The notes under the pieces were generated by a model that was not told the DNA's origin, ran no database searches, and saw only the letters and a program-made list of their open reading frames with translations. A stretch of DNA of 64,000 bases. Origin: a virus. Position 1 is the stretch's first letter. Every line of letters starts with the position of its first letter. The stretch is taken from positions 32,001 to 96,000 of IMG/VR virus record IMGVR_UViG_3300025133_000022; one strand, written 5' to 3'. Made by a program: the position numbers and the translations under genes. Shown here one piece after another: positions 35,188-59,985 of this stretch.

Positions 35188-35259
35188 GAGGAATTAGCTC
35201 AGCGGTAGAGCAGCAAATTCTAAACTTGTTTGTCGGGGGTTCGAATCCCCCATTCCTCA
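35188..35259 (+). tRNA. Amber suppressor tRNA (anticodon CTA)
   Basis: Canonical cloverleaf; GCAAA-ttCTAaa-CTTGT anticodon arm with an A31-C39 mismatch. Confidence 0.8.
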
Positions 35260-35365
35260 CTGCCGTAGGCGTGCGTAGCACGCCTTGTGGATTGAGCTCT
35301 TGACACACAAAAACAATCTGGTTATGTTGTCAGACTGTTCTTTGAAAACCACAATTGAAATGAAT

Positions 35366-43962: not shown

Positions 43963-44089
43963 AGCACCCGTCTCAGCATAAAAATTCAAACCACAACAAC
44001 TTCATACTAAAGCCCCGCGTAGCGGGGCTTCTTTTGTGAGAGCATTGACGCTCGAAGCAAACTGCATTAGCAGGAGAATCAAAGACATT

Positions 44090-44440
44090 ATGAATAGTGT
44101 AAATATTATCGGCAACCTTGGTCAAGATCCAATGCTGCGACACGTCGCCAGTGGCAAACCTGTTTTAAATTTTCGCATAGCTGTTGATAAATCACGCACC
44201 AGTAAGCACACTACAATGAGTGACACCAGCTGGTTTGATGTCACTGTCTGGGGAGCCGCAGCTGAATACCATGCCAAGTACCTGACCAAGGGCAGTCGTG
44301 TGGCCCTACAGGGCGAGCTGAACCAACGCTCCTGGCAAGACCGCGACGGCAACAAGCGTAGTGCAACAGAAATCATTGCTCATCGAATCGAATGGGTAAA
44401 ACTAAAACCAAACACCAGCAGCGTAGAACAAACTCTTTAA
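44090..44440 (+). CDS. ssb: Single-stranded DNA-binding protein (OB fold, no acidic tail)
   Basis: MNSVNIIGNLGQDP, WFDVTVWG, YLTKGSRVALQGEL...WQDRDG. Confidence 0.9.
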   Translation: MNSVNIIGNLGQDPMLRHVASGKPVLNFRIAVDKSRTSKHTTMSDTSWFDVTVWGAAAEYHAKYLTKGSRVALQGELNQRSWQDRDGNKRSATEIIAHRIEWVKLKPNTSSVEQTL

Positions 44441-45734: not shown

Positions 45735-48376
45735 ATGAACCAGGTACCATTGTATATTATCAACTTGGACGACAGCGTCCCACTGCCTGGTGGTACGTTC
45801 GTATTAGATGTTCAAACAGAAAAACTGCATTTATTCAGCAGTGTCGAATCATACAACAAGCAATATGTTATTATTGGTATAGCTGATTGTCCAGACCCAA
45901 CAGAAATACTCGAAGACCCTACATCTGCCCTTGAGCCTTTGCTACAAGTAGGGGTCATGTGTCAAATCACAGAAACAGAAGCTGCAGACACCTTCACGGT
46001 ATATACTCTTCAGGTACTGCATCGAGTCTTGATTAGAAATATCAATAGAAACAAAAGTGAAGACGACCCATATACTCTTTGGGTTCAGCAAGAGCCTATA
46101 GCAGAAGAATTTCTCCCCGCAGAAGAAGAACTAAAGAGAGACATTCAAGATATGATTGGAATATTTCTCCGTAAAGAACAAATCTGGGCAGGTATGTCTG
46201 ATTCAACTATCAAGACACTGCGCTCAGATGAGCATCTTTTGAAAAAGATGCATCTTATGGCAGGGCACATGCTATCAGGTATTGAACGATTAGACTATTT
46301 GCAACAACTCAGCAATGTTGACAGATGGAATAAAGTACTAACTGTGGCTAGCAAAAAACTAAGCGCACAAGCGAGAGCACTACCTCCCCCCGTCTCTAAG
46401 AAAATAGACAAACCTAAAAAGAAAGGTAAGAAACTACTTACTTGGAGAGAACGAGTTGCAGAGAGCGACATGCCTGATGCCGTACGAGAGAAAGTACTAC
46501 GCGAAGTCAGCAAGTTGGAATCTACTCCAAAAAACAGTACCGAGTATGCTCAGACAGCCGACTACCTTCGATGGACTCTAAGCGTTCCATGGGGTAAAAC
46601 AAGCTACATACCAACAGACCTACGCAAACTCCACAGCAAACTAGACGAAACACACTACGGTTTAAGTGAAGTGAAAGAACACATGCTTGAAATCATGTGT
46701 GTCCAAGAGCTTCACGAAGGCTCCACGGGCTCTGTGCTTTGTTTTGTAGGCCCTCCCGGCACAGGCAAAACCACCATCGCAAAATCTATTGCAGACGTTT
46801 CAAATCGTCCACTTATTAGAATTGCCCTAGGTGGACTCAGCGATACTGCTGAATTTCGAGGTTAAGCAAAATGGCCTCGCGTGTTGGCAACAGCACGAAA
46901 ACAATTCCATTAATTGCTGGAACATCCTAATGACAAAGTCAAGGACAATCAGCAGCTAGATATTAGTGGTCACCACATGTTACATTAACTCTATAACCAC
47001 GGAGTTAACAATGAAATATCATGTAGGCGACACACTTGGTTCGTTTCTACTCATCAATAAAGATGGAGTAAAATGGACCGCAAAATGCACATGTGGAAAC
47101 ATTTGGTCAACAAGATTGATACGACTAAAAGGCCGTACCAACTGCCCCAAATGCTCACCGCCACGATCTTATAAGCAAAGACAACCAGGTGAAACAATTA
47201 ACAGCCACACCTTACTTGAACGATTACCATCTAGAAAATGGAAAACTCAATGTAAGTGTGGAGCAACTAGAATATGTTCACCAGCTGATCTTAAAAGATA
47301 CGATACATGTAAAGCCTGCTACGATCCTGAGAAAGTAGCAGGCCAACTCCGACTTCCTCCTAAAGAGAAAGAAACTAATTATCGTATCCGCTACTACAAA
47401 AAACATGCTAAAGAAAGAAACTACGATTGGGAATTGACAAAATTTCAAACCCAAACACTACTTCAAAGCATATGCAACTATTGTGGTAGCGAAAATGCTC
47501 AAGGCATTGACAGAGTAGACAACTCTCAAGGATATACAATTAGCAACTGTGTCAGTTGCTGCAATTTTTGCAATCATGCAAAGAAAAACTATCCTAAAGA
47601 AGAGTTTCTTAATCATATTAAGCGCATTTATGAATATCAGTTCAGAGACTATCCCGAAAGGGAGTACAGCCAAGCGGCTGGAAACATGGAACCCCCACGT
47701 GGGTGAAGATATAGTCCGATCTACATGGAAACATGTAGCAGCGAAAGCGAGTGTAGCCTAGCGAACTACGCTGAACACCATGCATAGACGTACATACGTA
47801 GCCAGCAGACCAGGACGACTCATCTCCGAACTAAAAGAGAAGGGCAGTATGGATCCACTCATCCTTTTAGATGAAGTTGATAAGCTTGCTCACTACAAGG
47901 GCGACCCAGCAGCAGCCCTATTAGAGATCTTAGATCCAGAACAAAACGATCATTTTGTAGACCACTACTTGGAAGTGCCAGTAAATCTAAGTAAAGCAAT
48001 GTTCATTTGCACAGCCAATTACGAAGAAAAAATTCCACAACCACTACTAGATCGTATGGAACTAATCAGGTTCCGAGCTTACGATGATGCTGAACGCGAC
48101 ATTATTACAAAACAATTTCTGCTGCCAAAAATCCAAGCTCAAGAAAACAATACAAATCTACCAGTAACCTTCGAAGATACAGCTTTAACTAGAATAGCTA
48201 AGATTCCACAAGTAAGAAAAATCGAGAAGATTTTAGCTAAGCTTGTTCGCCGAGGAGTTACCCAAGTCCATGTACATGGGAAGAAAGAATACGTCATTAC
48301 AAATGATGATGTATCAAAAATTAAACACAACTATGTGTCAAAATCCGATCGAAAAATAATTGGATTCAGGAAATAA
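45735..48376 (+). CDS. Lon-like AAA+ ATPase without protease domain, spliced: join(45735..46862,47783..48376)
   Basis: Lon N-domain, LDETHYGL, GPPGTGKT; splicing restores AEFRG-HRRTY; LLDEVDK, LLEILDPEQN. Confidence 0.88.
46863..47782 (+). mobile_element. Group I intron in the Lon-like gene
   Basis: P1 CGAGGT/GCCTCG; AATTGCTGGAA, AATCAGCAG, GTTCAGAGACT, AAGATATAGTCC; terminal G at 47782. Confidence 0.9.
47011..47706 (+). CDS. Intron-encoded HNH homing endonuclease
   Basis: CTCG/CKCG repeats; CNYCG...GIDRVDNSQGY...NCVSCCNFCNHAK. Confidence 0.85.
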   Translation: MKYHVGDTLGSFLLINKDGVKWTAKCTCGNIWSTRLIRLKGRTNCPKCSPPRSYKQRQPGETINSHTLLERLPSRKWKTQCKCGATRICSPADLKRYDTCKACYDPEKVAGQLRLPPKEKETNYRIRYYKKHAKERNYDWELTKFQTQTLLQSICNYCGSENAQGIDRVDNSQGYTISNCVSCCNFCNHAKKNYPKEEFLNHIKRIYEYQFRDYPEREYSQAAGNMEPPRG

Positions 48377-48635: not shown

Positions 48636-49298
48636 TTGCTCAAATACAATCCAGAAAATCGTGTAAAAGATATAATCAAAAACCAAATCCTCGACTTACC
48701 AGAACTACAACACCAACTATCTAAAAATGCCATCTCGTATCTTCGAGAAAGGGTGTTTTTAGGGCAGTGTCAACCATATACTCAAAGAACAAGTAGTGGA
48801 CGACTAACTAGTATGCAAATTCAAACTATTTGTAAATTAAATATCTTGTGTTATCAAGAAAGTTATTATCATCGAGGATTGATAAATGCCGCAACTAAAA
48901 ATAATAAACCAATAGATGTAATCGCATTACATGATTACATCTATGCTCAACTTACACTCATTGTAGCAAACCCAAGATCCGAAATTTCAAACGACTCTCA
49001 AGCTCTTTTGAGAGGTCTAAAATTAAGTAGACGAGCACAAATCGCCCTACTTAATCAAAGAAATGGCCTTTCTGAAATTCTCCAAAGAGAACAACAACTT
49101 CAGCTTGCTCAACTTGGCACGCTAATCCTTCCACCCGCCCTTCTCACCATTTTACGTGAACCAGTTCACTTTGTAGACACTACCGCTACTGCCCTTGGCA
49201 GACTTGCTGAGGTGGTGCTGCGCCAAGGAATCAAATGCCAGGTTTCCACAACGACCAACTCTTTCATTTCAGAGCTTTTAGCAAGCTGCGTCCATTAG
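48636..49298 (+). CDS. Hypothetical protein
   Basis: TTG start after AGGAG. Confidence 0.55.
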   Translation: MLKYNPENRVKDIIKNQILDLPELQHQLSKNAISYLRERVFLGQCQPYTQRTSSGRLTSMQIQTICKLNILCYQESYYHRGLINAATKNNKPIDVIALHDYIYAQLTLIVANPRSEISNDSQALLRGLKLSRRAQIALLNQRNGLSEILQREQQLQLAQLGTLILPPALLTILREPVHFVDTTATALGRLAEVVLRQGIKCQVSTTTNSFISELLASCVH

Positions 49299-51442
49299 CT
49301 TACTATGCATTGTCTAGTGCGTACTTTTGCTCCCAGATGCGTTCCAACAGGTCTGCCAGACCATCTCTAGAGTACATCTACAACTTAATCCAAGAAAGTG
49401 TTCTTGCTTTCGATATTGAATTTAATGGAAAATCAACCTTCCATACAAATTCAATAAGAAGACATCACACTACACCCAAACGCAATATGGGAATGCTTAA
49501 GGTACGCAGAACCAAGCAAGGCTATACAAGCTTACCAGAATCACTTTTGAAAAGCATGGGCTCTCCCTTGCATTTTCCGACCCTGCCACCAAGCTTGACT
49601 TTCACCCCAAATGAAAATTTTGAATTGATTCCATATCGCATACAGATGGAAGCAAAATGGGTAGATCGCAGAGGAATGATCAGTTGCTTAGGTAGTAATT
49701 TTCGCAAATGGGTTGCTAGCCAAGGCCCCAGAAGAACAATAACCTGCAGAGGATACCGACACACTTTAGAAGAAAGCAAAATACCAGAATACAGTATCAA
49801 CTACGTTCCAGGCAAAACTGTTTCTAAAGCCGGAAACTTCTTCCTCTACAGCCAGAACCTCAACATCTACAATCCATACACTAAAGAGTACGAAACTGTA
49901 CTGTGGGTGGGTCTGGCTAGTTGCATGAGCATACAATATCTTTATACTCATCCATACGCTACGAAAATCATGAAGAGTCTTCTGGAAGCTAAAAAGCTTA
50001 AGAAAACCATTACCCCTCTTAGTAGGTATAATGCAAAAACTCCAGAAGGCATACGTTGGAGTGCAGCTACTTGGGAAAAGATAGCAGGTCAAACTTTAGA
50101 CCAGTACCAGAAGCAAAGTCATTCAAAAATTCTCGAAACACTAATTTTAGTTGAAGAACTGTTTTCTACTCCAGAAGGCATCAAGCTTCAGCGCATGGAA
50201 GATCTTGCACAAATAAAAAAACAAGAACTTGACGAATTAGAAGCTCAGTTAGAAATTACCGAAAAACAACTTCTCAAAACACAAACAGCAATAATAACAG
50301 AACTGCAACGCGTTAGAGAATACCAACTGAGCCTTCAAAGAAACCGAGAGAAAATTCCCTCCCTTGTGAAAGAGAAAGAAAAACTCCACCCAGAAGTAAG
50401 TGCACGAAAAGCAATTTTCAGTAAGATTCAAACTGCAATAGAAAAGAAAAGAACAGCATTCGAGCTAAATAAACGAAACTTCTTACGCGCTGACAAATTT
50501 AAGAACTCTAGCTCCTATGCAGAAGGCCTAGCTAAGAGCGGACTGGTAATAGACGACTTGGTTTATAAGAACCAAGTCTCAGGCAGAATGAAAACCGCTA
50601 GTGATAACCCAGACATCACGGTACAGCGAGACTGGAAATTAATAAAAGCCTATATGCATACTACTCGTCCAATCAAGATGCATTTTGGTTTAGAGAATGA
50701 AAAACCAAGAGCTAGTGGACCTCATAGGTTAAAAGTATGGCTTGAAGAGGGTACACCCAAACTGAAAATTTCTCCATTGGTTGCCTGGGCGGCGCTAGGC
50801 TGGGACGAGACTACTTTCAAGATAACTCCTCATGCGGATAGCTGCTCCATAGATACAACACAGCCTGCTATGTCAATCTGTAATGACATCTTGGATCACA
50901 GCCCAACAGTTTGCATGGGAGAGCTCAGTGCAACTGCCAGCTGGGCGTTTCATGATAACAATCCTAAAATGCTGGCGTTAGCAATCCTAAGCTTTCTTCA
51001 AAGTGTTAACAAGAAAGACATCTGGGGGAAAACATATACTACGTTCCCTTTCTGGGAAGATGTACAAAAAAGCAAACTTCCCAACGATTACACACACTGG
51101 GTAGAAAATACTGTAATCAAACAATCAGAAGCGCCTAAGTATTATATATCCAAATGTAGTAATTACTTCTTCGAAGTAACTAAAGGATCTGATGGGTGTG
51201 ATTGTAGATGGGGGCGTCTGAGAAAAACAGACAATGGTCTTGTAGAAACAAGCAACAATAGCCACCTCAACTACATAAGAAGCGATTACAATACAACTTA
51301 TACTTTATTGTGCGCAAATGCGCAATGGGTATTATCTCCATTTGCTGCAATTCAACAGAAGCATGATGGAACTACACCTGGTTGGAACCCCATGTCCTAT
51401 GTGCCACCTCCAACTGATTCTTTAGCTACTCCTACTTCTTAA
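49235..51442 (+). CDS. Large protein with a coiled coil and a putative prokaryotic E2-like domain
   Basis: ITPH...VCMGEL...AILSFLQSVNKKDIWG resembles prokaryotic E2 domains; lies upstream of JAB, E1 and Ubl genes. Confidence 0.5.
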   Translation: MPGFHNDQLFHFRAFSKLRPLAYYALSSAYFCSQMRSNRSARPSLEYIYNLIQESVLAFDIEFNGKSTFHTNSIRRHHTTPKRNMGMLKVRRTKQGYTSLPESLLKSMGSPLHFPTLPPSLTFTPNENFELIPYRIQMEAKWVDRRGMISCLGSNFRKWVASQGPRRTITCRGYRHTLEESKIPEYSINYVPGKTVSKAGNFFLYSQNLNIYNPYTKEYETVLWVGLASCMSIQYLYTHPYATKIMKSLLEAKKLKKTITPLSRYNAKTPEGIRWSAATWEKIAGQTLDQYQKQSHSKILETLILVEELFSTPEGIKLQRMEDLAQIKKQELDELEAQLEITEKQLLKTQTAIITELQRVREYQLSLQRNREKIPSLVKEKEKLHPEVSARKAIFSKIQTAIEKKRTAFELNKRNFLRADKFKNSSSYAEGLAKSGLVIDDLVYKNQVSGRMKTASDNPDITVQRDWKLIKAYMHTTRPIKMHFGLENEKPRASGPHRLKVWLEEGTPKLKISPLVAWAALGWDETTFKITPHADSCSIDTTQPAMSICNDILDHSPTVCMGELSATASWAFHDNNPKMLALAILSFLQSVNKKDIWGKTYTTFPFWEDVQKSKLPNDYTHWVENTVIKQSEAPKYYISKCSNYFFEVTKGSDGCDCRWGRLRKTDNGLVETSNNSHLNYIRSDYNTTYTLLCANAQWVLSPFAAIQQKHDGTTPGWNPMSYVPPPTDSLATPTS

Positions 51443-51484
51443 AACCGAGGGGGGCGCGTAGCGCCCCTTCTTTCAAGAGCAGAT

Positions 51485-52723
51485 ATGAATAAAACACCTA
51501 AAAAAACCTTTGAAATCATACCATTTGGCATTACACCAGACGTGACTGTCTGTATTGATCATGCAAGCCTATTGCGTTACCGCTACTTGGTAGCACAAGT
51601 ATCACCAAACGAAGTTCAATGGTACGCAAAAGTAAAACGAACAGTTACACCAGCTAGCGAACGATCCCGTCAATATTCCAATTCACTATGGACATATCAT
51701 ATCACAGATATGTTCGTTCCCGAACAAAGCGTGAGCAAAGGTTCTGTTGATACTGACATCAAACAAAACCCAGCAGCAATGTATCGACTCATGAAAGAAA
51801 TCGAAGGACGCTATCCTGATGATAGCAGTGAGCTTGGATTCAATACAGAGAAAGCCAACGAAGACATACAGGCTATGCACGTCTGGTGTCATTCGCACCC
51901 GTTCACTCAATATCCTACTCCGAGTGGGCAAGACGACAAAATGTTTTCTGATTGGGTCTATGATAATCAAATAGCCCAAACAATAACCTCTCCGTTCGTA
52001 GCACTTATCTTCGGCTCTAGTGAAAACATTCACGCACGCATATATGACCCGCTTACTCCTGGCATCATGTATGAAAATGTTAAAGTCTCTATCACTGTTG
52101 ATAAAGACTTTGATACAACTTACATGGACAATGCAGTAGCAACCAAGATTGAAGAAAAGACTTTCAATTACGCCAGCGGCGGCACTTACATTCGCTGCTC
52201 TGATGGAGTTTATCGCACTTCTGAAGTAAAAAATGCCTTTGATAAAACCAATCAGAAAAAGCTAATCAGCAAGAAAAACAAATGCTTTTTTGATAAATAT
52301 TTTCCAACAGACTGGGAAACATTTGTTGCAGATTGCAATAGCAAGTACGACAACACCAAAGAAATAATGGAGCTGTGGAACTTCATGTGTCGCTGGCTGC
52401 CTACAAAATTAGAGCGAACGCTTTTCTGCTTAGCTCTTGTAGATACTTCTGAAAGCTTAGAAAAAATGGCACGAGCCAAACAAGAAGACTTATTCCACAT
52501 ATCAGATGAGGACGCTATACTCGTTCTTACAACACACTTCTCATCTGATTCTGTCTGTAGTAAACAACTTCGTTCTGCTTTGACCTTCTCTAAGCGATAC
52601 GCAAAACAAAACAGTGAAGAAGGCAGACTCCGTGCAGTACGCTTTCTTAAGAAGAGCCTAGACAAAATTATCCACAACTCTGCCAGCCCTTCAGGCTACG
52701 TCTTTTTAGAAGACTGCAATTAA
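51485..52723 (+). CDS. JAB/MPN-domain metallopeptidase
   Basis: NEVQW...WCHSHP...PSGQD (JAMM E/HxH/S/D). Confidence 0.75.
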   Translation: MNKTPKKTFEIIPFGITPDVTVCIDHASLLRYRYLVAQVSPNEVQWYAKVKRTVTPASERSRQYSNSLWTYHITDMFVPEQSVSKGSVDTDIKQNPAAMYRLMKEIEGRYPDDSSELGFNTEKANEDIQAMHVWCHSHPFTQYPTPSGQDDKMFSDWVYDNQIAQTITSPFVALIFGSSENIHARIYDPLTPGIMYENVKVSITVDKDFDTTYMDNAVATKIEEKTFNYASGGTYIRCSDGVYRTSEVKNAFDKTNQKKLISKKNKCFFDKYFPTDWETFVADCNSKYDNTKEIMELWNFMCRWLPTKLERTLFCLALVDTSESLEKMARAKQEDLFHISDEDAILVLTTHFSSDSVCSKQLRSALTFSKRYAKQNSEEGRLRAVRFLKKSLDKIIHNSASPSGYVFLEDCN

Positions 52724-52745
52724 CAAACACCAGCGAGAAATTACC

Positions 52746-53441
52746 ATGAGCACACGTGTATCATTCCAAAGACACAATGGCTTTGTAAGCCCAGAATGTC
52801 TTACTGATACTCTCAATATCATTGGAGTCGGCGCGACTGGCTCCAATGTAGCCCTAACAGCAGCTAAAATGGGGTTTACCAAATTTCGCATTTGGGATGA
52901 CGACATTGTTGAAGCTCATAATTTACCCAACCAGACATATGACCTCTGTCATGTTGGCATGCCAAAAGTAGAAGCACTTAAAACAGTGCTAAAACGCTTT
53001 AACCCCGAGATTGAAGTAGAAGTCAATCAGTGTTACTTCACCGCCAAAGAACATGGTGATGACCTGGAAGGCCCACTCATTCTCACCGTTGACACAATGA
53101 AAGCCCGCAAAGAAATCACAGACTGCTTTGAAGGCAACATTCTCATCGATACCGTAATCGAATCCCGTTTAGGATTCAATCATGGCACAATCAATATTAT
53201 AGATTGTACCAGTGCAAAAGATATAAAGGAATGGAAACATTCTTTATTCAGTGATGACGAAATACCCGAAGGTCCTTGTGGCTTTCGAATTTGTACCACC
53301 ATGGTTGGCATGGTTGCGAACTTTATGGTTCAGCAACTCTGCCAAAAATATGCTGCTCAGAAAACCAATGCAGCATGGAACCCAAAGAAAAAGACAGTGC
53401 TCGCCTTCAGTGACACTAGTCTAGACACCTATTCAACCTAA
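52746..53441 (+). CDS. ThiF/E1-like activating enzyme
   Basis: IIGVGATGS, WDDDIVEAHNLPNQ, PKVEAL, TVDTMKAR. Confidence 0.9.
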   Translation: MSTRVSFQRHNGFVSPECLTDTLNIIGVGATGSNVALTAAKMGFTKFRIWDDDIVEAHNLPNQTYDLCHVGMPKVEALKTVLKRFNPEIEVEVNQCYFTAKEHGDDLEGPLILTVDTMKARKEITDCFEGNILIDTVIESRLGFNHGTINIIDCTSAKDIKEWKHSLFSDDEIPEGPCGFRICTTMVGMVANFMVQQLCQKYAAQKTNAAWNPKKKTVLAFSDTSLDTYST

Positions 53442-53454
53442 GGAATTATCGCAC

Positions 53455-53682
53455 ATGCGCACAATCTCTCTCGTCACTCTTCCAGGCTCTGGCCGTAGCG
53501 TTCAGCAAATCGAACCCGGAACCACCCTTGCATCCTTCGCTGCCGCCAATGGCGTAACAAACCGTCAGCTCTGTCTGAACGGTGACACAATCCCAAGAGC
53601 CCAGTGGGAATCTGTCGACCTGTTTGCATATGAAGGCAGGGTAGAAGTGGCCGCACTGCTAGGCAGCAAGGGCAACAGCTGA
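53455..53682 (+). CDS. Ubiquitin-like (beta-grasp, ThiS/MoaD-type) protein
   Basis: 75 aa; beta-grasp pattern; C-terminus SKGNS; adjacent to the E1 gene. Confidence 0.7.
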   Translation: MRTISLVTLPGSGRSVQQIEPGTTLASFAAANGVTNRQLCLNGDTIPRAQWESVDLFAYEGRVEVAALLGSKGNS

Positions 53683-53737
53683 GTTTAGCAAACTCAAACA
53701 TCTGAATGGATCCTTAAGGGGATCCATTCTTATTTAT

Positions 53738-54121
53738 ATGACAATCAAAATTCAAGTCATTGGTCTTCCAGGTTCTGGGAAGACCACTTATATTCGCAAA
53801 TTCTTAGAACAACACCCTGATGTCCAATACCTAGACATTTGTAATTTTACCGGCAGATGTCGAGAACAAAAATTCAGAAGAGCTTTCAAGAATGCACAAG
53901 GGCCTATCATTGCCGAAAGCGCTTGTGGCATTTACAATGCAGGTTATATCATTAGGGTAAATACCCCAATTCAAACTACGTATCGCCAGCTGAAAGCTAG
54001 AGATGATAAAGCTGATCTAGAATATCTTTCTCTACTGAGTACACAAATAGTGCCTGCCCATTGTACACTGAGGCTGCCGGAAGATCTCCCCGGCCAATTG
54101 CAGACCATACTAAGGAGGTAA
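53738..54121 (+). CDS. P-loop kinase/ATPase
   Basis: IGLPGSGKTT. Confidence 0.75.
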   Translation: MTIKIQVIGLPGSGKTTYIRKFLEQHPDVQYLDICNFTGRCREQKFRRAFKNAQGPIIAESACGIYNAGYIIRVNTPIQTTYRQLKARDDKADLEYLSLLSTQIVPAHCTLRLPEDLPGQLQTILRR

Positions 54122-58594: not shown

Positions 58595-59224
58595 ATGTTC
58601 TGTGCATTTATAACACTAGGTGTGATATGCGCTATTCTCTCAGCCGTAATATTCATAGAAATAGAGCACATACACACTCATTACAATGCCAAGATTAAAG
58701 CAATGACAACACAAGTCACAGAAGCTCAAATAATAGAAGCAGACTTGCAAAACAAAATCAAAAACCTTAACCTGCATTTCGAAGAGCAACAGCAAGCAAA
58801 CAAAATCTTGCAGTCAGAAGCTTACAAACGTGGCGATAAAAAAGGCAGACAAGACGCACTCAAGCGAAGCAAAAGCATAACTCACGGATTTGTTTCCGAA
58901 AACTTCGCTCCTCTTTTCAATCACCATGACTGGAACCCCAAAGATTTCAGGCACATGGGGGACCCTATCGACTACCTGGTGATACCTGGCATGAGCTTAG
59001 TTCACCAGGCAGGAGCACAAGCAAATGTTGAGGAAGTTGTCTTGCTGGACATCAAAACCGGCAACAGTCAACTTAATACCGTGCAACGACGTATTCGAGA
59101 TGCCGTTGTGAACGGCAGGGTGCGCTTTGCAACATACAACACAGACAAGGGCCAGCTACGATGCTGGCCACCTAGTCTGGAATCAGCACAATTAAAGCTA
59201 CCACTCAAAACAAATACAAAATGA
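58595..59224 (+). CDS. Holliday-junction-resolvase-like endonuclease with N-terminal TM/coiled coil
   Basis: SENFAP...FRHMGDPIDY...DIKTG...QRRIRDAV. Confidence 0.8.
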   Translation: MFCAFITLGVICAILSAVIFIEIEHIHTHYNAKIKAMTTQVTEAQIIEADLQNKIKNLNLHFEEQQQANKILQSEAYKRGDKKGRQDALKRSKSITHGFVSENFAPLFNHHDWNPKDFRHMGDPIDYLVIPGMSLVHQAGAQANVEEVVLLDIKTGNSQLNTVQRRIRDAVVNGRVRFATYNTDKGQLRCWPPSLESAQLKLPLKTNTK

Positions 59225-59985
59225 AATCAATTACAGCAGACACCTTTTATGAATGTCGCATTTGCGGTCGTGCCTACATGGAGTCAGGAATAGCAAGTTT
59301 CTGTCATCCAGACACTTTCGTCAAATCCGTTGACCCGTACTTAGTTATGGCAGCAATTAGACGTAAGCTCATCAAAGAGCCGACTTATACAGTCAAAGAC
59401 ATTGAAGACTTTCCTGACGAGTCACCAAGACGTTCAGATTTATACGACATGCAAGAACCAGGAAAAGCCAATCCTGGCAAGAACCTAGAGCCTGAGGAAA
59501 AGCATCCACACAACGAGACAGAAGACGGACCCTGCGAACTCACCGAATGGGGAGACCAAGTAGTCACCCACACTAGCGGAGCTAAACGTGCCAACGGAGA
59601 CAAGATCCGCTGGGACCTCATGCCTGTCGCACCTATGCGAGACACCGCGTTGATCTGGACCTTTGGTGCAAATAAATACGGTGACAGAAATTGGGAGCAA
59701 GGTTTCGACTGGTCGGGCCCCTACGCTAGTTTACAGCGACACCTACAAGCATGGTTCTCAGGAGAAGACTTCGACAAAGAGTCTGGCATGAGCCACCTGG
59801 CTCATGCCGCCTGCAACCTACAGATGCTACAGCAGTTTGAGTACACACACAAAGAGGGTGACAACCGCCCTCACAACAGCTGCCCACCGACTAGGAAATC
59901 AAATGCCGAAAGACAAGAGAATGAGTCCACTAAGGACAAAAATAAAAAAGAAAGACATCTTGAAAAAAAACCTACACGTTGGTGA
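59221..59985 (+). CDS. dATP/dGTP diphosphohydrolase domain protein
   Basis: KIRWDLMP...FGANKYGDRNWEQG...RHL...DKESGMSHLAHAACN. Confidence 0.85.
   Translation: MKSITADTFYECRICGRAYMESGIASFCHPDTFVKSVDPYLVMAAIRRKLIKEPTYTVKDIEDFPDESPRRSDLYDMQEPGKANPGKNLEPEEKHPHNETEDGPCELTEWGDQVVTHTSGAKRANGDKIRWDLMPVAPMRDTALIWTFGANKYGDRNWEQGFDWSGPYASLQRHLQAWFSGEDFDKESGMSHLAHAACNLQMLQQFEYTHKEGDNRPHNSCPPTRKSNAERQENESTKDKNKKERHLEKKPTRW

What the first reader, a model, noticed from the sequence alone, without database searches (positions are those of the whole stretch)
48636..53682. Putative phage-encoded ubiquitin-like conjugation operon (E2-like, JAB, E1, Ubl)
Seen: consecutive genes for a 735-aa coiled-coil protein with a PH...VCMG...FLQSVN..D.WG segment (about 50820-51030), a JAMM-motif protein, a ThiF/E1 enzyme and a 75-aa beta-grasp protein ending KGNS. 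Established: bacterial E1-E2-Ubl-JAB operons conjugate Ubls, some in antiphage defence (Bil/Bub-type), and JAB proteases trim Ubl tails to expose a terminal Gly. Inference: JAB removes NS to expose ...KG, and the phage ubiquitylates its own or host proteins or counters host Ubl defence. No ThiG or molybdopterin synthase gene is adjacent, which argues against sulfur transfer.
Basis: partly seen in the sequence, partly recalled or inferred. Interest (0 to 1): 0.78.

Follow-up and report, generated by a model that had tools for sequence, protein, structure and literature searches.

The report
Phage-encoded ubiquitin-like tagging cassette
A 192-kb uncultured phage, and at least eleven related phage contigs, carry four adjacent genes that look like a complete ubiquitin-style protein-tagging kit, and some relatives encode the tag as head-to-tail repeats like eukaryotic polyubiquitin; it has not been described in the phage literature I could search.

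Summary
Four tightly packed + strand genes (gaps 42, 22 and 13 nt), followed by a terminator-like hairpin, encode:
- a 735-aa protein ("BIG");
- a 412-aa protein with an intact, invariant JAMM motif;
- a minimal 231-aa ThiF-type E1 with an invariant Cys;
- a 75-aa ThiS-like beta-grasp protein ending KGNS.

BIG-JAB-E1-Ubl keeps this order in all 12 loci examined (window, one metagenome contig, ten IMG/VR contigs of 24-161 kb).

New here:
- All 20 Ubl units end in invariant K-G-N.
- Relatives encode 2x and 3x tandem Ubl polyproteins and a Ubl-Ubl-domain fusion. This implies proteolytic maturation and stoichiometric use of the tag.
- The phage genome has no ThiG, MoaE, PP-loop, rhodanese or desulfurase gene.

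Best reading (about 0.6): a phage ubiquitin-like conjugation system with unknown targets. Another first-stage note of this scan covers this same stretch; nothing similar was noted on other DNA.

The parts
48636..49298 (+). 220-aa gene of unknown function directly upstream, overlapping the BIG start by 64 nt. It is a conserved neighbour; membership of the cassette is not established.
   Evidence: 39% identity to L003:6448-7053. No Pfam, PHROG, PADLOC or NCBIfam hit. Absent from the ten IMG/VR relatives, which carry other genes there. No profile similarity to them.
49235..51442 (+). BIG, 735 aa. It has an N-terminal alpha/beta domain of unknown fold, a central coiled coil, a diverged UBC/E2-like domain and a small C-terminal beta-rich tail.
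   Evidence: The start MPGF... is shared with close homologues. There are 114 representative clusters by phmmer. No Pfam or PHROG family.
49235..50014 (+). BIG N-terminal domain (about residues 1-260). Its invariant Cys (VGLASCMS) is conserved only within the close subfamily.
   Evidence: AF2 model m82228d7040e2, pLDDT 83.5. No structural match: best Foldseek E 0.14, and VIA hits only on the helical end.
50120..50494 (+). BIG coiled-coil region (about residues 296-420).
   Evidence: A profile search against PDB returns only coiled-coil proteins over this stretch. The model shows long helices.
50507..51109 (+). BIG E2-like domain (residues 425-625). Pro532-His533 lie at 50828-50833 and the candidate catalytic Cys560 at 50912-50914.
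51131..51361 (+). BIG C-terminal tail domain (residues 633-709), containing an RWGR motif. It may bind nucleic acid (lead only).
51451..51467 (.). Perfect GC-rich 7-bp hairpin in the 42-nt gap between BIG and the JAB gene.
   Evidence: Function not tested.
51485..52723 (+). JAB/JAMM metalloprotease, 412 aa. The N-terminal JAB domain has Glu43 (51611-51613) and H136-x-H138...S147-x-x-D150 (51890-51934). The C-terminal helical domain is unassigned.
   Evidence: Prok-JAB E 0.0031, below cut-off. PADLOC JAB E 0.019. All five JAMM residues are invariant in 11 homologues. 36% identical to the L003 counterpart.
52746..53441 (+). Minimal E1 (ThiF-family adenylation domain, 231 aa). It has GxGxxGS at 52824-52844 and invariant Cys178 at 53277-53279. 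There is no rhodanese domain, CxxC zinc site, E2 fusion or peptide-clamp domain.
   Evidence: Pfam ThiF E 3.9e-19. Below every NCBIfam equivalog cut-off. PADLOC Cap2 E1-E2 models match the Rossmann part only. Nearest PDB sequences are ThiF-type 9egb, ThiF, PaaA, UBA5, Cap2, MoeB, MccB and BubCD. Invariant residues.
53455..53682 (+). Ubl: a 75-aa ThiS-like beta-grasp protein. The invariant K-G-N lies at 53668-53676, followed by Ser and the stop codon.
   Evidence: Atlas model TM 0.74-0.77 to ThiS (PF02597) clusters; nearest clusters are viral. TIGR01683 ThiS E 0.016. K-G-N is invariant in 20 of 20 units.
53704..53740 (+). Terminator-like 11-bp hairpin followed by a T-rich run, 22 nt after the Ubl stop codon. 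Probable 3' end of the transcription unit.
   Evidence: consensus scan only.

Best explanation
The cassette is a phage-encoded ubiquitin-like protein conjugation system. The proposed steps are below; only the first sentence of step 1 and the residue conservation in steps 2 and 3 are shown by sequence. The rest is inferred.

1. Maturation. The Ubl is made as a capped precursor: ...KG-N-S here, and ...KG-N, tandem 2x or 3x Ubl polyproteins, or Ubl-Ubl-X fusions in relatives. I infer that the adjacent JAMM metalloprotease matures it at the invariant K-G-N junction, most likely exposing ...Lys-Gly, and may also reverse conjugation.
2. Activation. The minimal ThiF-type E1 adenylates the Ubl C-terminus. 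It may hold the Ubl on its invariant Cys178.
3. Transfer. The Ubl passes to the invariant Cys560 of the UBC-like domain of the 735-aa protein.
4. Targeting. The coiled coil, N-terminal domain and variable C-terminal tail of that protein then direct the Ubl onto target proteins.

The targets are unknown. The cassette lies among replication and DNA-metabolism genes, not virion genes. This points to intracellular targets during infection rather than tail assembly.
For: - E1 is established by HMM. Its nucleotide-binding and catalytic residues and Cys178 are invariant in 11 sequences.
- The JAMM residues are invariant in 11 homologues.
- The Ubl has a beta-grasp fold: TM 0.74-0.77 to ThiS clusters.
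- Independently, ESM Atlas neighbours are viral Prok-E2_D clusters by features (score 0.85) and UQ_con clusters by structure (TM 0.40).
- P-H, C and G are invariant in 112 representatives. The His-to-Cys spacing shrinks to about 10 residues in minimal members. From memory, that matches the UBC HPN-to-Cys spacing.
- The order BIG-JAB-E1-Ubl is kept in 12 of 12 loci.
- Relatives carry poly-Ubl genes, extra Ubl genes and a Ubl-fusion gene, with every unit ending K-G-N. This implies proteolytic maturation and high, stoichiometric demand for the tag.
- ThiG, MoaE, PP-loop ATPase, rhodanese and cysteine desulfurase are all absent from a genome that CheckV rates 100% complete.
- Gaps of 42, 22 and 13 nt and a terminator-like hairpin after the Ubl gene fit one operon.
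Against: - No sequence profile links BIG to any E2 family: Pfam, NCBIfam and PADLOC, PF14460 and PF14461 against the DNA, and PDB profile searches.
- Foldseek finds nothing.
- I could not see the residue-level superposition, so I have not shown that Cys560 sits at the E2 catalytic position.
- The Atlas score (0.85) and TM (0.40) are in the 'lead only' range.
- The Ubl ends in a single Gly followed by an invariant Asn, not Gly-Gly.
- JAB + capped ThiS-like carrier + E1 also occurs in sulfur-transfer pathways (QbsCDE, CysO/Mec; from memory).
- The 12 loci belong to one phage clade with long shared synteny, so conserved adjacency is not independent evidence.
- No conjugate, thioester or target has been observed.
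Confidence: 0.6

Rival explanations
1. E2-independent conjugation. The E1 alone activates the Ubl and transfers it to lysines, as archaeal UbaA does with SAMPs or TtuC with TtuB. The 735-aa protein would then be a substrate, scaffold or targeting factor rather than a thioester-forming E2, and its conserved His and Cys would serve another role.
For: - All sequence-level E2 tests failed.
- The E1 carries its own invariant Cys178.
- SAMP- and TtuB-type systems need only E1 + Ubl + JAMM (from memory; compare PMC2948915 and PMC4443979 found).
Against: - P-H...C-x-G is invariant across 112 divergent BIG representatives. That argues for catalysis, not scaffolding.
- Two independent methods (VIA on the AF2 model, and the Atlas pLM and its own model) point at the same E2 superfamily.
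- BIG is strictly co-retained next to JAB, E1 and Ubl in 12 of 12 loci.
Confidence: 0.12
2. Sulfur-carrier system. The E1 adenylates the ThiS-like protein, a host sulfurtransferase converts it to a thiocarboxylate, and it donates sulfur to a cofactor, a tRNA or DNA base, or a small molecule. The JAB would only uncap the carrier, as QbsD does for QbsE or Mec for CysO.
For: - The Ubl's nearest named structural neighbours are ThiS and MoaD. There is also a weak ThiS HMM hit.
- The best E1 HMM hits are ThiF models.
- The phage carries at least 23 tRNA genes in this window, so tRNA thiolation is conceivable.
- JAB + capped carrier + E1 trios exist in sulfur pathways (Iyer 2006, PMC1779556; QbsCDE from memory).
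Against: - No sulfur acceptor or donor enzyme is found anywhere in the genome: ThiG, MoaE, PP-loop ATPase, rhodanese and cysteine desulfurase all give no hit while the controls do.
- The E1 has no rhodanese domain or CxxC zinc site.
- The terminus is KGN, not GG.
- Tandem poly-Ubl genes, up to six Ubl units per genome, and a Ubl-domain fusion suit a tag that is consumed, not a carrier that is recycled.
- The model leaves the conserved 735-aa protein unexplained.
Confidence: 0.13
3. Chemistry on the terminal Asn. The invariant Asn is the reactive residue, not a cap. As with MccB acting on MccA peptides (always ending in Asn), or Pup ending in Gln, the E1-family enzyme would adenylate the Asn carboxylate. 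That would give a succinimide or a nucleotidylated protein end, or a side-chain-linked product.
For: - Asn follows Gly in 20 of 20 Ubl units, and 11 of them stop exactly at Asn.
- Tandem units are exactly 71 aa if the boundary is placed after Asn, the same length as the monomer gene product.
- MccB is among the E1's PDB relatives, E 1.9e-9.
- The MccA/MccB and Pup precedents are from memory.
Against: - The E1 lacks the N-terminal peptide-clamp domain of MccB. Its Rossmann fold starts at about residue 20 of 231.
- Similarity to MccB is weaker than to ThiF, UBA5 or Cap2.
- In this window Asn is followed by Ser, so it is not terminal without processing.
- An E2-like partner with an invariant Cys has no role in this chemistry.
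- The tail length up to Gly resembles that of ubiquitin (from memory).
Confidence: 0.07

Closest known systems
Bil (bacterial ISG15-like) operons BilABCD; Iyer 2006 class 6d (Ubl, JAB, E1-like, E2-like)
   Same: The same four functions are encoded as separate adjacent genes: Ubl, E2-like, JAB peptidase and E1. Protein conjugation by Bil has been demonstrated (PMC11601603 and PMC10557695, seen; PMC1779556).
   Different: - Bil is a bacterial anti-phage defence system. This cassette is in a lytic-type large phage, among replication genes.
- No sequence-profile link to the Prok-E2 families tested or to Pfam models in general.
- The E2-like protein here is 735-1097 aa, with extra N-terminal, coiled-coil and tail domains.
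- The Ubl is a single ThiS-like domain ending KGN, and in relatives a cleavable-looking tandem array rather than a fixed two- or three-domain Ubl.
Bub (bacterial ubiquitination-like, formerly 6E/DUF6527) operons
   Same: They encode E1, E2, Ubl and a maturation peptidase, and a peptidase cleaves a precursor to make the functional Ubl (PMC11601596). BubCD is among the E1's PDB relatives (E 8.8e-9).
   Different: Bub works through oxyester intermediates. Its E1 lacks a catalytic Cys and is fused to its peptidase, and it also has a Ser-His protease. Here the E1 and the E2-like domain both keep invariant Cys residues, and the peptidase is a separate JAMM enzyme.
Type II CBASS Cap2 (E2-E1 fusion) and Cap3 (JAB)
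   Same: E1, E2 and JAB logic. PADLOC Cap2 models hit the E1 Rossmann region (E 5e-16), and Cap2 is among the PDB relatives.
   Different: In CBASS the conjugated moiety is the CD-NTase itself, there is no Ubl, and E2 and E1 are fused. Here there is a dedicated beta-grasp Ubl, E1 and the E2-like protein are separate genes, and no CD-NTase is adjacent.
Eukaryotic polyubiquitin and ubiquitin-fusion precursor genes
   Same: Relatives encode head-to-tail Ubl repeats (2x and 3x), each with the complete C-terminal motif, plus a Ubl-Ubl-X fusion whose X domain is also encoded alone. Monomer genes carry a one-residue cap after Gly. The comparison with UBI4's terminal Asn is from memory.
   Different: - The fold is closest to ThiS, not ubiquitin.
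- There is one Gly, not Gly-Gly.
- The residue after Gly (Asn) is present after every unit and is invariant.
- The window's own phage has only a single-copy Ubl.
- Processing is inferred, not shown.
Lambda/T1-type tail assembly TAPI (Ubl) and TAPK (JAB + NlpC/P60)
   Same: This is the only Ubl + JAB pairing in phages that I found described (PMC1779556).
   Different: That pair lies in the tail-assembly cluster and has no E1 or E2. This cassette lies among SSB, PhoH, Whirly-like and resolvase-like genes and includes E1 and an E2-like protein.
ThiS/MoaD-ThiF/MoeB sulfur carriers, including JAB-uncapped QbsE/QbsD and CysO/Mec
   Same: ThiS-like fold, ThiF-family E1, and a JAMM peptidase acting on the carrier's C-terminus (Qbs and Mec from memory).
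   Different: There are no sulfur-pathway partners in the genome, no rhodanese domain, a KGN terminus, poly-Ubl genes, and an added E2-like protein.

Membership tests
Prokaryotic E1-E2-JAB-Ubl conjugation operons (Bil type; Iyer 2006 class 6d) | ThiF/E1 adenylation domain with a nucleotide-binding loop and a conserved Cys | tested here: met
   Pfam ThiF E 3.9e-19. GxGxxGS, the DxDxVE..NLPNQ block, K74, D116, R121 and Cys178 are invariant in 11 sequences.
Prokaryotic E1-E2-JAB-Ubl conjugation operons (Bil type; Iyer 2006 class 6d) | JAMM/JAB metalloprotease with E...HxH...S..D | tested here: met
   E43, H136, H138, S147 and D150 are invariant in 11 homologues. The Prok-JAB HMM gives only E 0.0031, below the cut-off.
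Prokaryotic E1-E2-JAB-Ubl conjugation operons (Bil type; Iyer 2006 class 6d) | Small beta-grasp Ubl with Gly at or near the C-terminus | tested here: met
   Atlas model TM 0.74-0.77 to ThiS clusters. K-G-N is invariant in 20 units. The fold rests on predicted models only.
Prokaryotic E1-E2-JAB-Ubl conjugation operons (Bil type; Iyer 2006 class 6d) | UBC-fold E2 with a catalytic Cys | tested here: inconclusive
Prokaryotic E1-E2-JAB-Ubl conjugation operons (Bil type; Iyer 2006 class 6d) | Formation of Ubl-target isopeptide conjugates | not testable with these tools
   This needs co-expression or infection with western blot and mass spectrometry.
Pfam E2 families (UQ_con PF00179, Prok-E2_A to Prok-E2_E) | A significant match to the family HMM | tested here: not met
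   No Pfam family for BIG or for 20 relatives, even at E up to 1. PF14461 and PF14460 against the phage DNA and four related records gave no match at E up to 1 and 10 respectively.
Pfam E2 families (UQ_con PF00179, Prok-E2_A to Prok-E2_E) | Conserved His-Pro-x motif after the beta-meander, then the catalytic Cys before the crossover helix | tested here: inconclusive
   The family motif is hHPH[T] - 10 to 27 residues - C[LM]GE - helix ... SANS.D.WG. The order of secondary-structure elements in the model (helix, beta-meander, P-H, Cys, three helices) fits UBC. The canonical E2 pattern is recalled from memory.
ThiS/MoaD sulfur-carrier systems | Carrier ends in Gly-Gly | tested here: not met
   All 20 units end K-G-N.
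ThiS/MoaD sulfur-carrier systems | A sulfur acceptor or donor partner is encoded with it (ThiG, MoaE, TtuA/NcsA-type PP-loop ATPase, rhodanese, cysteine desulfurase) | tested here: not met
   No match for any of the five in the 192.5-kb genome, while the controls gave matches. Host enzymes could substitute, so the mechanism is weakened but not excluded.
Polyubiquitin-type precursor organisation | Head-to-tail repeats of the modifier, each with its full C-terminal motif | tested here: met
   Met in relatives only: L012/L013 have 3 units of 71 aa, L010 has 2 units, and L011 has 2 units plus a domain. The window's phage has one single-unit gene.
Polyubiquitin-type precursor organisation | Cleavage into monomers by the cognate peptidase | not testable with these tools
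   This needs an in vitro JAB cleavage assay.
MccB/MccA-type peptide nucleotidylation | Substrate ends in Asn | tested here: inconclusive
   Asn is invariant and is the last residue in 11 of 20 units. In this window it is followed by Ser.
MccB/MccA-type peptide nucleotidylation | The E1-like enzyme has an N-terminal peptide-clamp domain | tested here: not met
   The E1 is 231 aa and its Rossmann motif starts at residue 27. The MccB architecture is recalled from memory.

The most novel reading that the evidence does not exclude
Large uncultured phages carry their own ubiquitin-like economy. The tag would be made from polyubiquitin-style precursors, matured by a JAMM protease, and attached by a giant E2-like enzyme that may also serve as its own ligase. 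That enzyme's tail may dock it on nucleic acid at replication sites. Tagged host or phage proteins could be handed to the protease-less Lon-type AAA+ unfoldase encoded about 0.9 kb upstream and to the phage's two ClpP genes. That would be a viral analogue of the ubiquitin-proteasome or Pup-proteasome pathway.
Probability: 0.15. Interest if true: 0.92.

Novelty: new variant of a known kind. Interest (0 to 1): 0.78.

Why it matters
So far, the bacterial ubiquitin-like conjugation systems with a known role (type II CBASS, Bil) are host weapons against phages, and Bub is suspected to be one. A complete E1 / E2-like / JAB / Ubl cassette on the phage side would mean viruses of bacteria also use protein tagging, as eukaryotic viruses use ubiquitin.

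It is conserved across a clade of 124-192 kb phages and is absent from 50,697 deposited phage genomes.

Tandem poly-Ubl and Ubl-fusion genes were thought of as a eukaryotic hallmark. Finding them here would show that this gene organisation arises wherever a tag is consumed in bulk.

The 735-aa family (114 clusters at 50% identity, no annotation) would be a new, very divergent branch of the E2 superfamily with an invariant His/Cys pair.

Every step is testable with four small genes in E. coli.

Tried and rejected
**Searches that found nothing**
- Sequence searches of BIG and its family against Pfam, PHROGs, PADLOC, NCBIfam and PDB gave only coiled-coil noise.
- Foldseek against PDB found nothing for either BIG model.
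- The N-terminal domain had no VIA match beyond its helices.
- PF14461 and PF14460 were not found in the phage DNA or in four related records.
- A profile of the Ubl against PDB gave nothing. A profile of the JAB protein against PDB gave nothing relevant.
- blastn of the region, and tblastn of BIG and of a distant family member, against 50,697 phage records gave no match. The first IMG/VR scan also gave none.
- A Pfam scan of the BIG tails for WGR gave nothing.
- Literature searches found no description of a phage E1-E2-JAB-Ubl cassette. The jumbo-phage survey PMC7824862 does not mention JAB, ThiF or E1.

**Ideas rejected or left open**
- TAG recoding as an explanation for the gene boundaries: rejected.
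- The 220-aa upstream gene as a homologue of the ~290-aa gene at that position in relatives: rejected (hhalign probability 0.2%).
- The Xanthomonas phage 70-aa protein as a Ubl homologue: not supported.
- crAss001 Gp78 as a BIG homologue: not supported.
- A clan-CD (caspase-like) His-Cys protease reading of the BIG C-domain: considered, but no peptidase appears among the structural matches.

- One alignment was too large for the Pfam scan.
- One alignment was too diverse for a locus search.

Full report
**Setting**

The window is bases 32,001-96,000 of a single-contig virus record of 192,537 bases that CheckV rates 100% complete. It carries 23 predicted tRNA genes in the window alone.

The region around the finding is a run of + strand genes typical of a phage replication and DNA-metabolism module:
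- SSB (44036-44440);
- a Lon-type N-domain plus AAA+ gene interrupted by an HNH-endonuclease ORF (45735-48376);
- the genes of the finding;
- a small P-loop protein and PhoH;
- a Whirly-like protein and a SpoVG-like protein;
- a Holliday-junction-resolvase-like nuclease;
- a protein with the dATP/dGTP diphosphohydrolase N-domain.

Reading TAG as a sense codon does not alter the reading of the genes of interest, which end in TAA or TGA.

**The observation**

- BIG, the 735-aa product of 49235-51442, has a central region that matches only coiled-coil proteins. It has the PH...VCMG...LQSVN..D.WG segment at 50828-51031.
- The 412-aa product of 51485-52723 contains PNEVQW (Glu43) and HSHPFTQYPTPSGQD, a complete JAMM motif.
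- The 231-aa product of 52746-53441 is a ThiF-family domain (E 3.9e-19).
- The 75-aa product of 53455-53682 ends GSKGNS.

The gaps between the four genes are 42, 22 and 13 nt. An 11-bp hairpin followed by a T-rich run sits 22 nt after the last stop codon. This fits one transcription unit.

The finding's left end also covers a 220-aa gene (48636-49298). It is real but is shared only with the closest relative, so I do not count it as part of the cassette.

**Conservation**

BIG has five close homologues and 114 representative clusters at 50% identity in the 1.8-billion-protein library. No source names the few for which a name field was shown, and no Pfam domain is recorded for them. The most conserved stretch is residues 420-615.

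One metagenome contig (L003) and ten IMG/VR contigs (L004-L013, from records of 24-161 kb) encode relatives. In all of them the order BIG, JAB, E1, Ubl is kept. E1 is the most conserved component (41-71% identity). BIG falls to about 21-27% identity in its E2-like domain.

The flanks are also largely syntenic: Lon-type AAA+ upstream, P-loop and PhoH downstream. These contigs are therefore one phage clade, and the conserved adjacency is not independent evidence from unrelated lineages.

No deposited phage genome (50,697 records) has BIG. The nearest E1s there are at most 35% identical.

**E1, JAB and Ubl**

*E1.* The E1 is a minimal adenylation domain. GxGxxGS, the DxDIVE..NLPNQ block, Lys74, Asp116, Arg121 and Cys178 are invariant. 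I saw no rhodanese domain, CxxC zinc site, E2 fusion or peptide-clamp domain. It scores below every NCBIfam equivalog cut-off. Its PDB relatives (a ThiF-type protein, ThiF, PaaA, UBA5, Cap2, TcdA, MoeB, MccB, BubCD) match only the Rossmann half. Sequence alone therefore does not say which chemistry it performs.

*JAB.* The HMM hit is weak (Prok-JAB E 0.0031; PADLOC JAB E 0.019). All five JAMM residues are nonetheless invariant in 11 homologues that are only 29-55% identical.

*Ubl.* No significant HMM hit was found (ThiS E 0.016). The ESM Atlas model (pLDDT 0.77) superposes on ThiS/MoaD clusters at TM 0.74-0.77. Its nearest clusters are viral 71-79-aa proteins.

**Is BIG an E2?**

*Against.* All sequence tests failed, and so did Foldseek.

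*For.*
- The AlphaFold2 model of residues 415-735, built on 112 sequences, is confident over model residues 10-200.
- The ESM Atlas gave viral clusters with Prok-E2_D as nearest neighbours by language-model features (score 0.85). It gave UQ_con clusters as nearest by its own, poorer, model (TM 0.40).
- The family motif is h-H-P-H-[T], then 10-27 variable residues, then C-[LM]-G-E and helices ending in S-A-N-S-x-D-x-W-G. Pro, His, Cys and Gly are invariant in all 112 sequences.
- The model's order of elements is helix, beta-meander, P-H, Cys, three helices. From memory, that is the UBC order, and members without the insert have an HPN-to-Cys-like spacing.

I therefore rate the E2 assignment as likely, about two in three, and not shown.

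**Other parts of BIG**
- The N-terminal 260 residues model confidently (pLDDT 83.5) but match nothing.

**The new evidence: precursor genes**

Searching the related loci with a Ubl profile showed that several phages have more than one Ubl gene:
- L012/L013 encode three exact 71-aa units head to tail (213 aa), next to a 71-aa monomer gene.
- L010 encodes a two-unit protein and a monomer with a 16-residue tail.
- L011 encodes two units fused to a roughly 90-aa domain. That domain is also encoded on its own next to the Ubl genes of L010 and L012.

Across 20 non-redundant units the last three residues, K-G-N, are invariant. What follows varies: a stop codon (11 units), Ser, Gln, three residues, a tail, another unit, or the fused domain.

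This organisation resembles polyubiquitin and ubiquitin-fusion genes. It implies that a peptidase releases units at K-G-N and that the protein is needed in bulk. Both points fit a consumed tag better than a recycled sulfur carrier.

One point stays open. The invariant Asn is unusual for a disposable cap. If the boundary is placed after Asn, the tandem units are exactly monomer-sized. Whether the reactive end is Gly (after removal of Asn) or Asn itself is therefore unresolved.

**Rivals**

*Sulfur-carrier system.* It is weakened by the absence of ThiG, MoaE, PP-loop ATPase, rhodanese and cysteine desulfurase from the whole genome while the controls gave matches. The KGN end and the poly-Ubl genes also count against it. 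Host enzymes could still supply these functions, and JAB-uncapped carriers are known.

*E2-independent conjugation (SAMP or TtuB style).* It remains possible because the E2 call is soft.

*MccB-like reaction on the terminal Asn.* The invariant Asn suggests it. The E1 lacks a clamp domain, however, and this model gives the E2-like partner no role.

I put the conjugation cascade with BIG as E2 at 0.6, E2-independent conjugation at 0.12, sulfur transfer at 0.13, and Asn chemistry at 0.07.

**Comparison with known systems**

The cassette works most like Bil operons (separate Ubl, E2, JAB and E1). It also resembles Bub (precursor cleavage by an operon peptidase) and type II CBASS (E1/E2/JAB logic) (PMC11601603, PMC11601596, PMC10557695, PMC1779556).

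By sequence it is not a member of any of these. It also differs in several ways:
- it is phage-encoded;
- the E2-like protein is very large;
- the Ubl is ThiS-like and ends KGN;
- relatives carry tandem and fusion precursor genes.

The only phage Ubl/JAB pair I found described is the lambda/T1 tail-assembly TAPI/TAPK pair. It has no E1 or E2 and sits among tail genes. Searches of the held literature, including the jumbo-phage survey PMC7824862, found no description of this cassette. That library omits many subscription papers, so prior description cannot be excluded.

More distant JAB + ThiF pairs exist in crAss001 (Gp77 Prok-JAB E 4.9e-4, next to ThiF Gp76). In Xanthomonas and Erwinia jumbo phages a ThiF lies next to an 892-aa protein. 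hhalign aligns that protein's HPH...CLG segment to the BIG profile (probability 20%, E 0.0011). These offer culturable handles.

**Verdict**

I class it as a new variant of a known kind: a ubiquitin-like conjugation operon on the virus side, with polyubiquitin-style genes.

The most novel reading not excluded is a phage tagging-and-degradation pathway. It would couple the cassette to the adjacent protease-less Lon-type AAA+ protein (no Lon_C anywhere in the genome) and to the two ClpP genes about 35 kb away.

Noticed in passing
L012:10519-11160, L013:5302-5943, L010:10487-10966, L011:11922-12641: Tandem poly-Ubl genes (3x, 3x, 2x) and a Ubl-Ubl-X fusion in related phages. L012 carries several Ubl-related genes in a row: a 71-aa monomer, the 3x array and a weaker 68-aa relative that lacks the KGN end.
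   Followed up: yes
L012:9967-10266, L010:11203-11559, C-terminal part of L011:11922-12641: A roughly 90-100-aa 'X' domain (conserved YGH..YTG.IAEK ... FFGWA) is encoded next to the Ubl genes and once fused after two Ubl units. It has no Pfam hit, is absent from the window's genome, and is a candidate cargo or cofactor.
   Followed up: partly
L005:6358-6567, L006:6046-6294, L008:6011-6253, L009:5890-6150, L010:5332-5568, L011:4466-4690, L012:5232-5444: A 69-86-aa four-Cys protein (MKLxCLDxDxCG ... CxxC), probably a zinc ribbon, lies at or near the 5' side of BIG in seven IMG/VR loci (one gene away in L011). It is a conceivable RING-like partner. The window has none.
   Followed up: no
window 45735-48376: A Lon-type N-domain + AAA+ gene is split by an HNH-endonuclease ORF (46966-47706). 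The two halves match PHROG 15585 positions 251-393 and 394-576, so they abut exactly. There is no Lon protease domain anywhere in the genome. Relatives have the gene uninterrupted (530-605 aa).
   Followed up: partly
genome C1:120289-120807 and C1:125360-125767 (outside the window): Two ClpP-family genes (E 1.6e-28 and 4e-25). Together with the protease-less Lon-type AAA+ gene, they suggest phage-encoded proteolysis machinery.
   Followed up: partly
L004:5524-6237 (- strand) and its counterparts in L005, L006, L008 and L009: A Trypsin_2-type serine peptidase gene on the opposite strand lies between the Lon-type gene and BIG in relatives. It is absent at this position in the window.
   Followed up: no
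window 59221-59985: A 254-aa protein carries the dATP/dGTP diphosphohydrolase N-terminal domain (E 3.1e-28). Enzymes of this kind are used by phages that replace a DNA base, so the DNA of this phage may be modified.
   Followed up: no
window 35188-35260: ARAGORN calls a tRNA with anticodon CTA (a TAG reader). TAG still ends 29 of 168 long ORFs genome-wide, and recoding TAG did not merge the genes studied here.
   Followed up: partly
window 51451-51467: A perfect GC-rich palindrome (7-bp stem, 3-nt loop) lies in the 42-nt spacer between BIG and the JAB gene. It may be an RNA processing, stability or attenuation element.
   Followed up: no
L001 (crAss001 Gp76-Gp78) and L002 (Xanthomonas phage PhiXhv-15, 2238-6488): Cultured phages have distant ThiF-containing clusters in their replication regions. 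crAss001 pairs a Prok-JAB-like 'metalloprotease' with ThiF. The Xanthomonas and Erwinia jumbo phages pair ThiF with an 892-aa protein carrying an HPH...CLG motif.
   Followed up: partly
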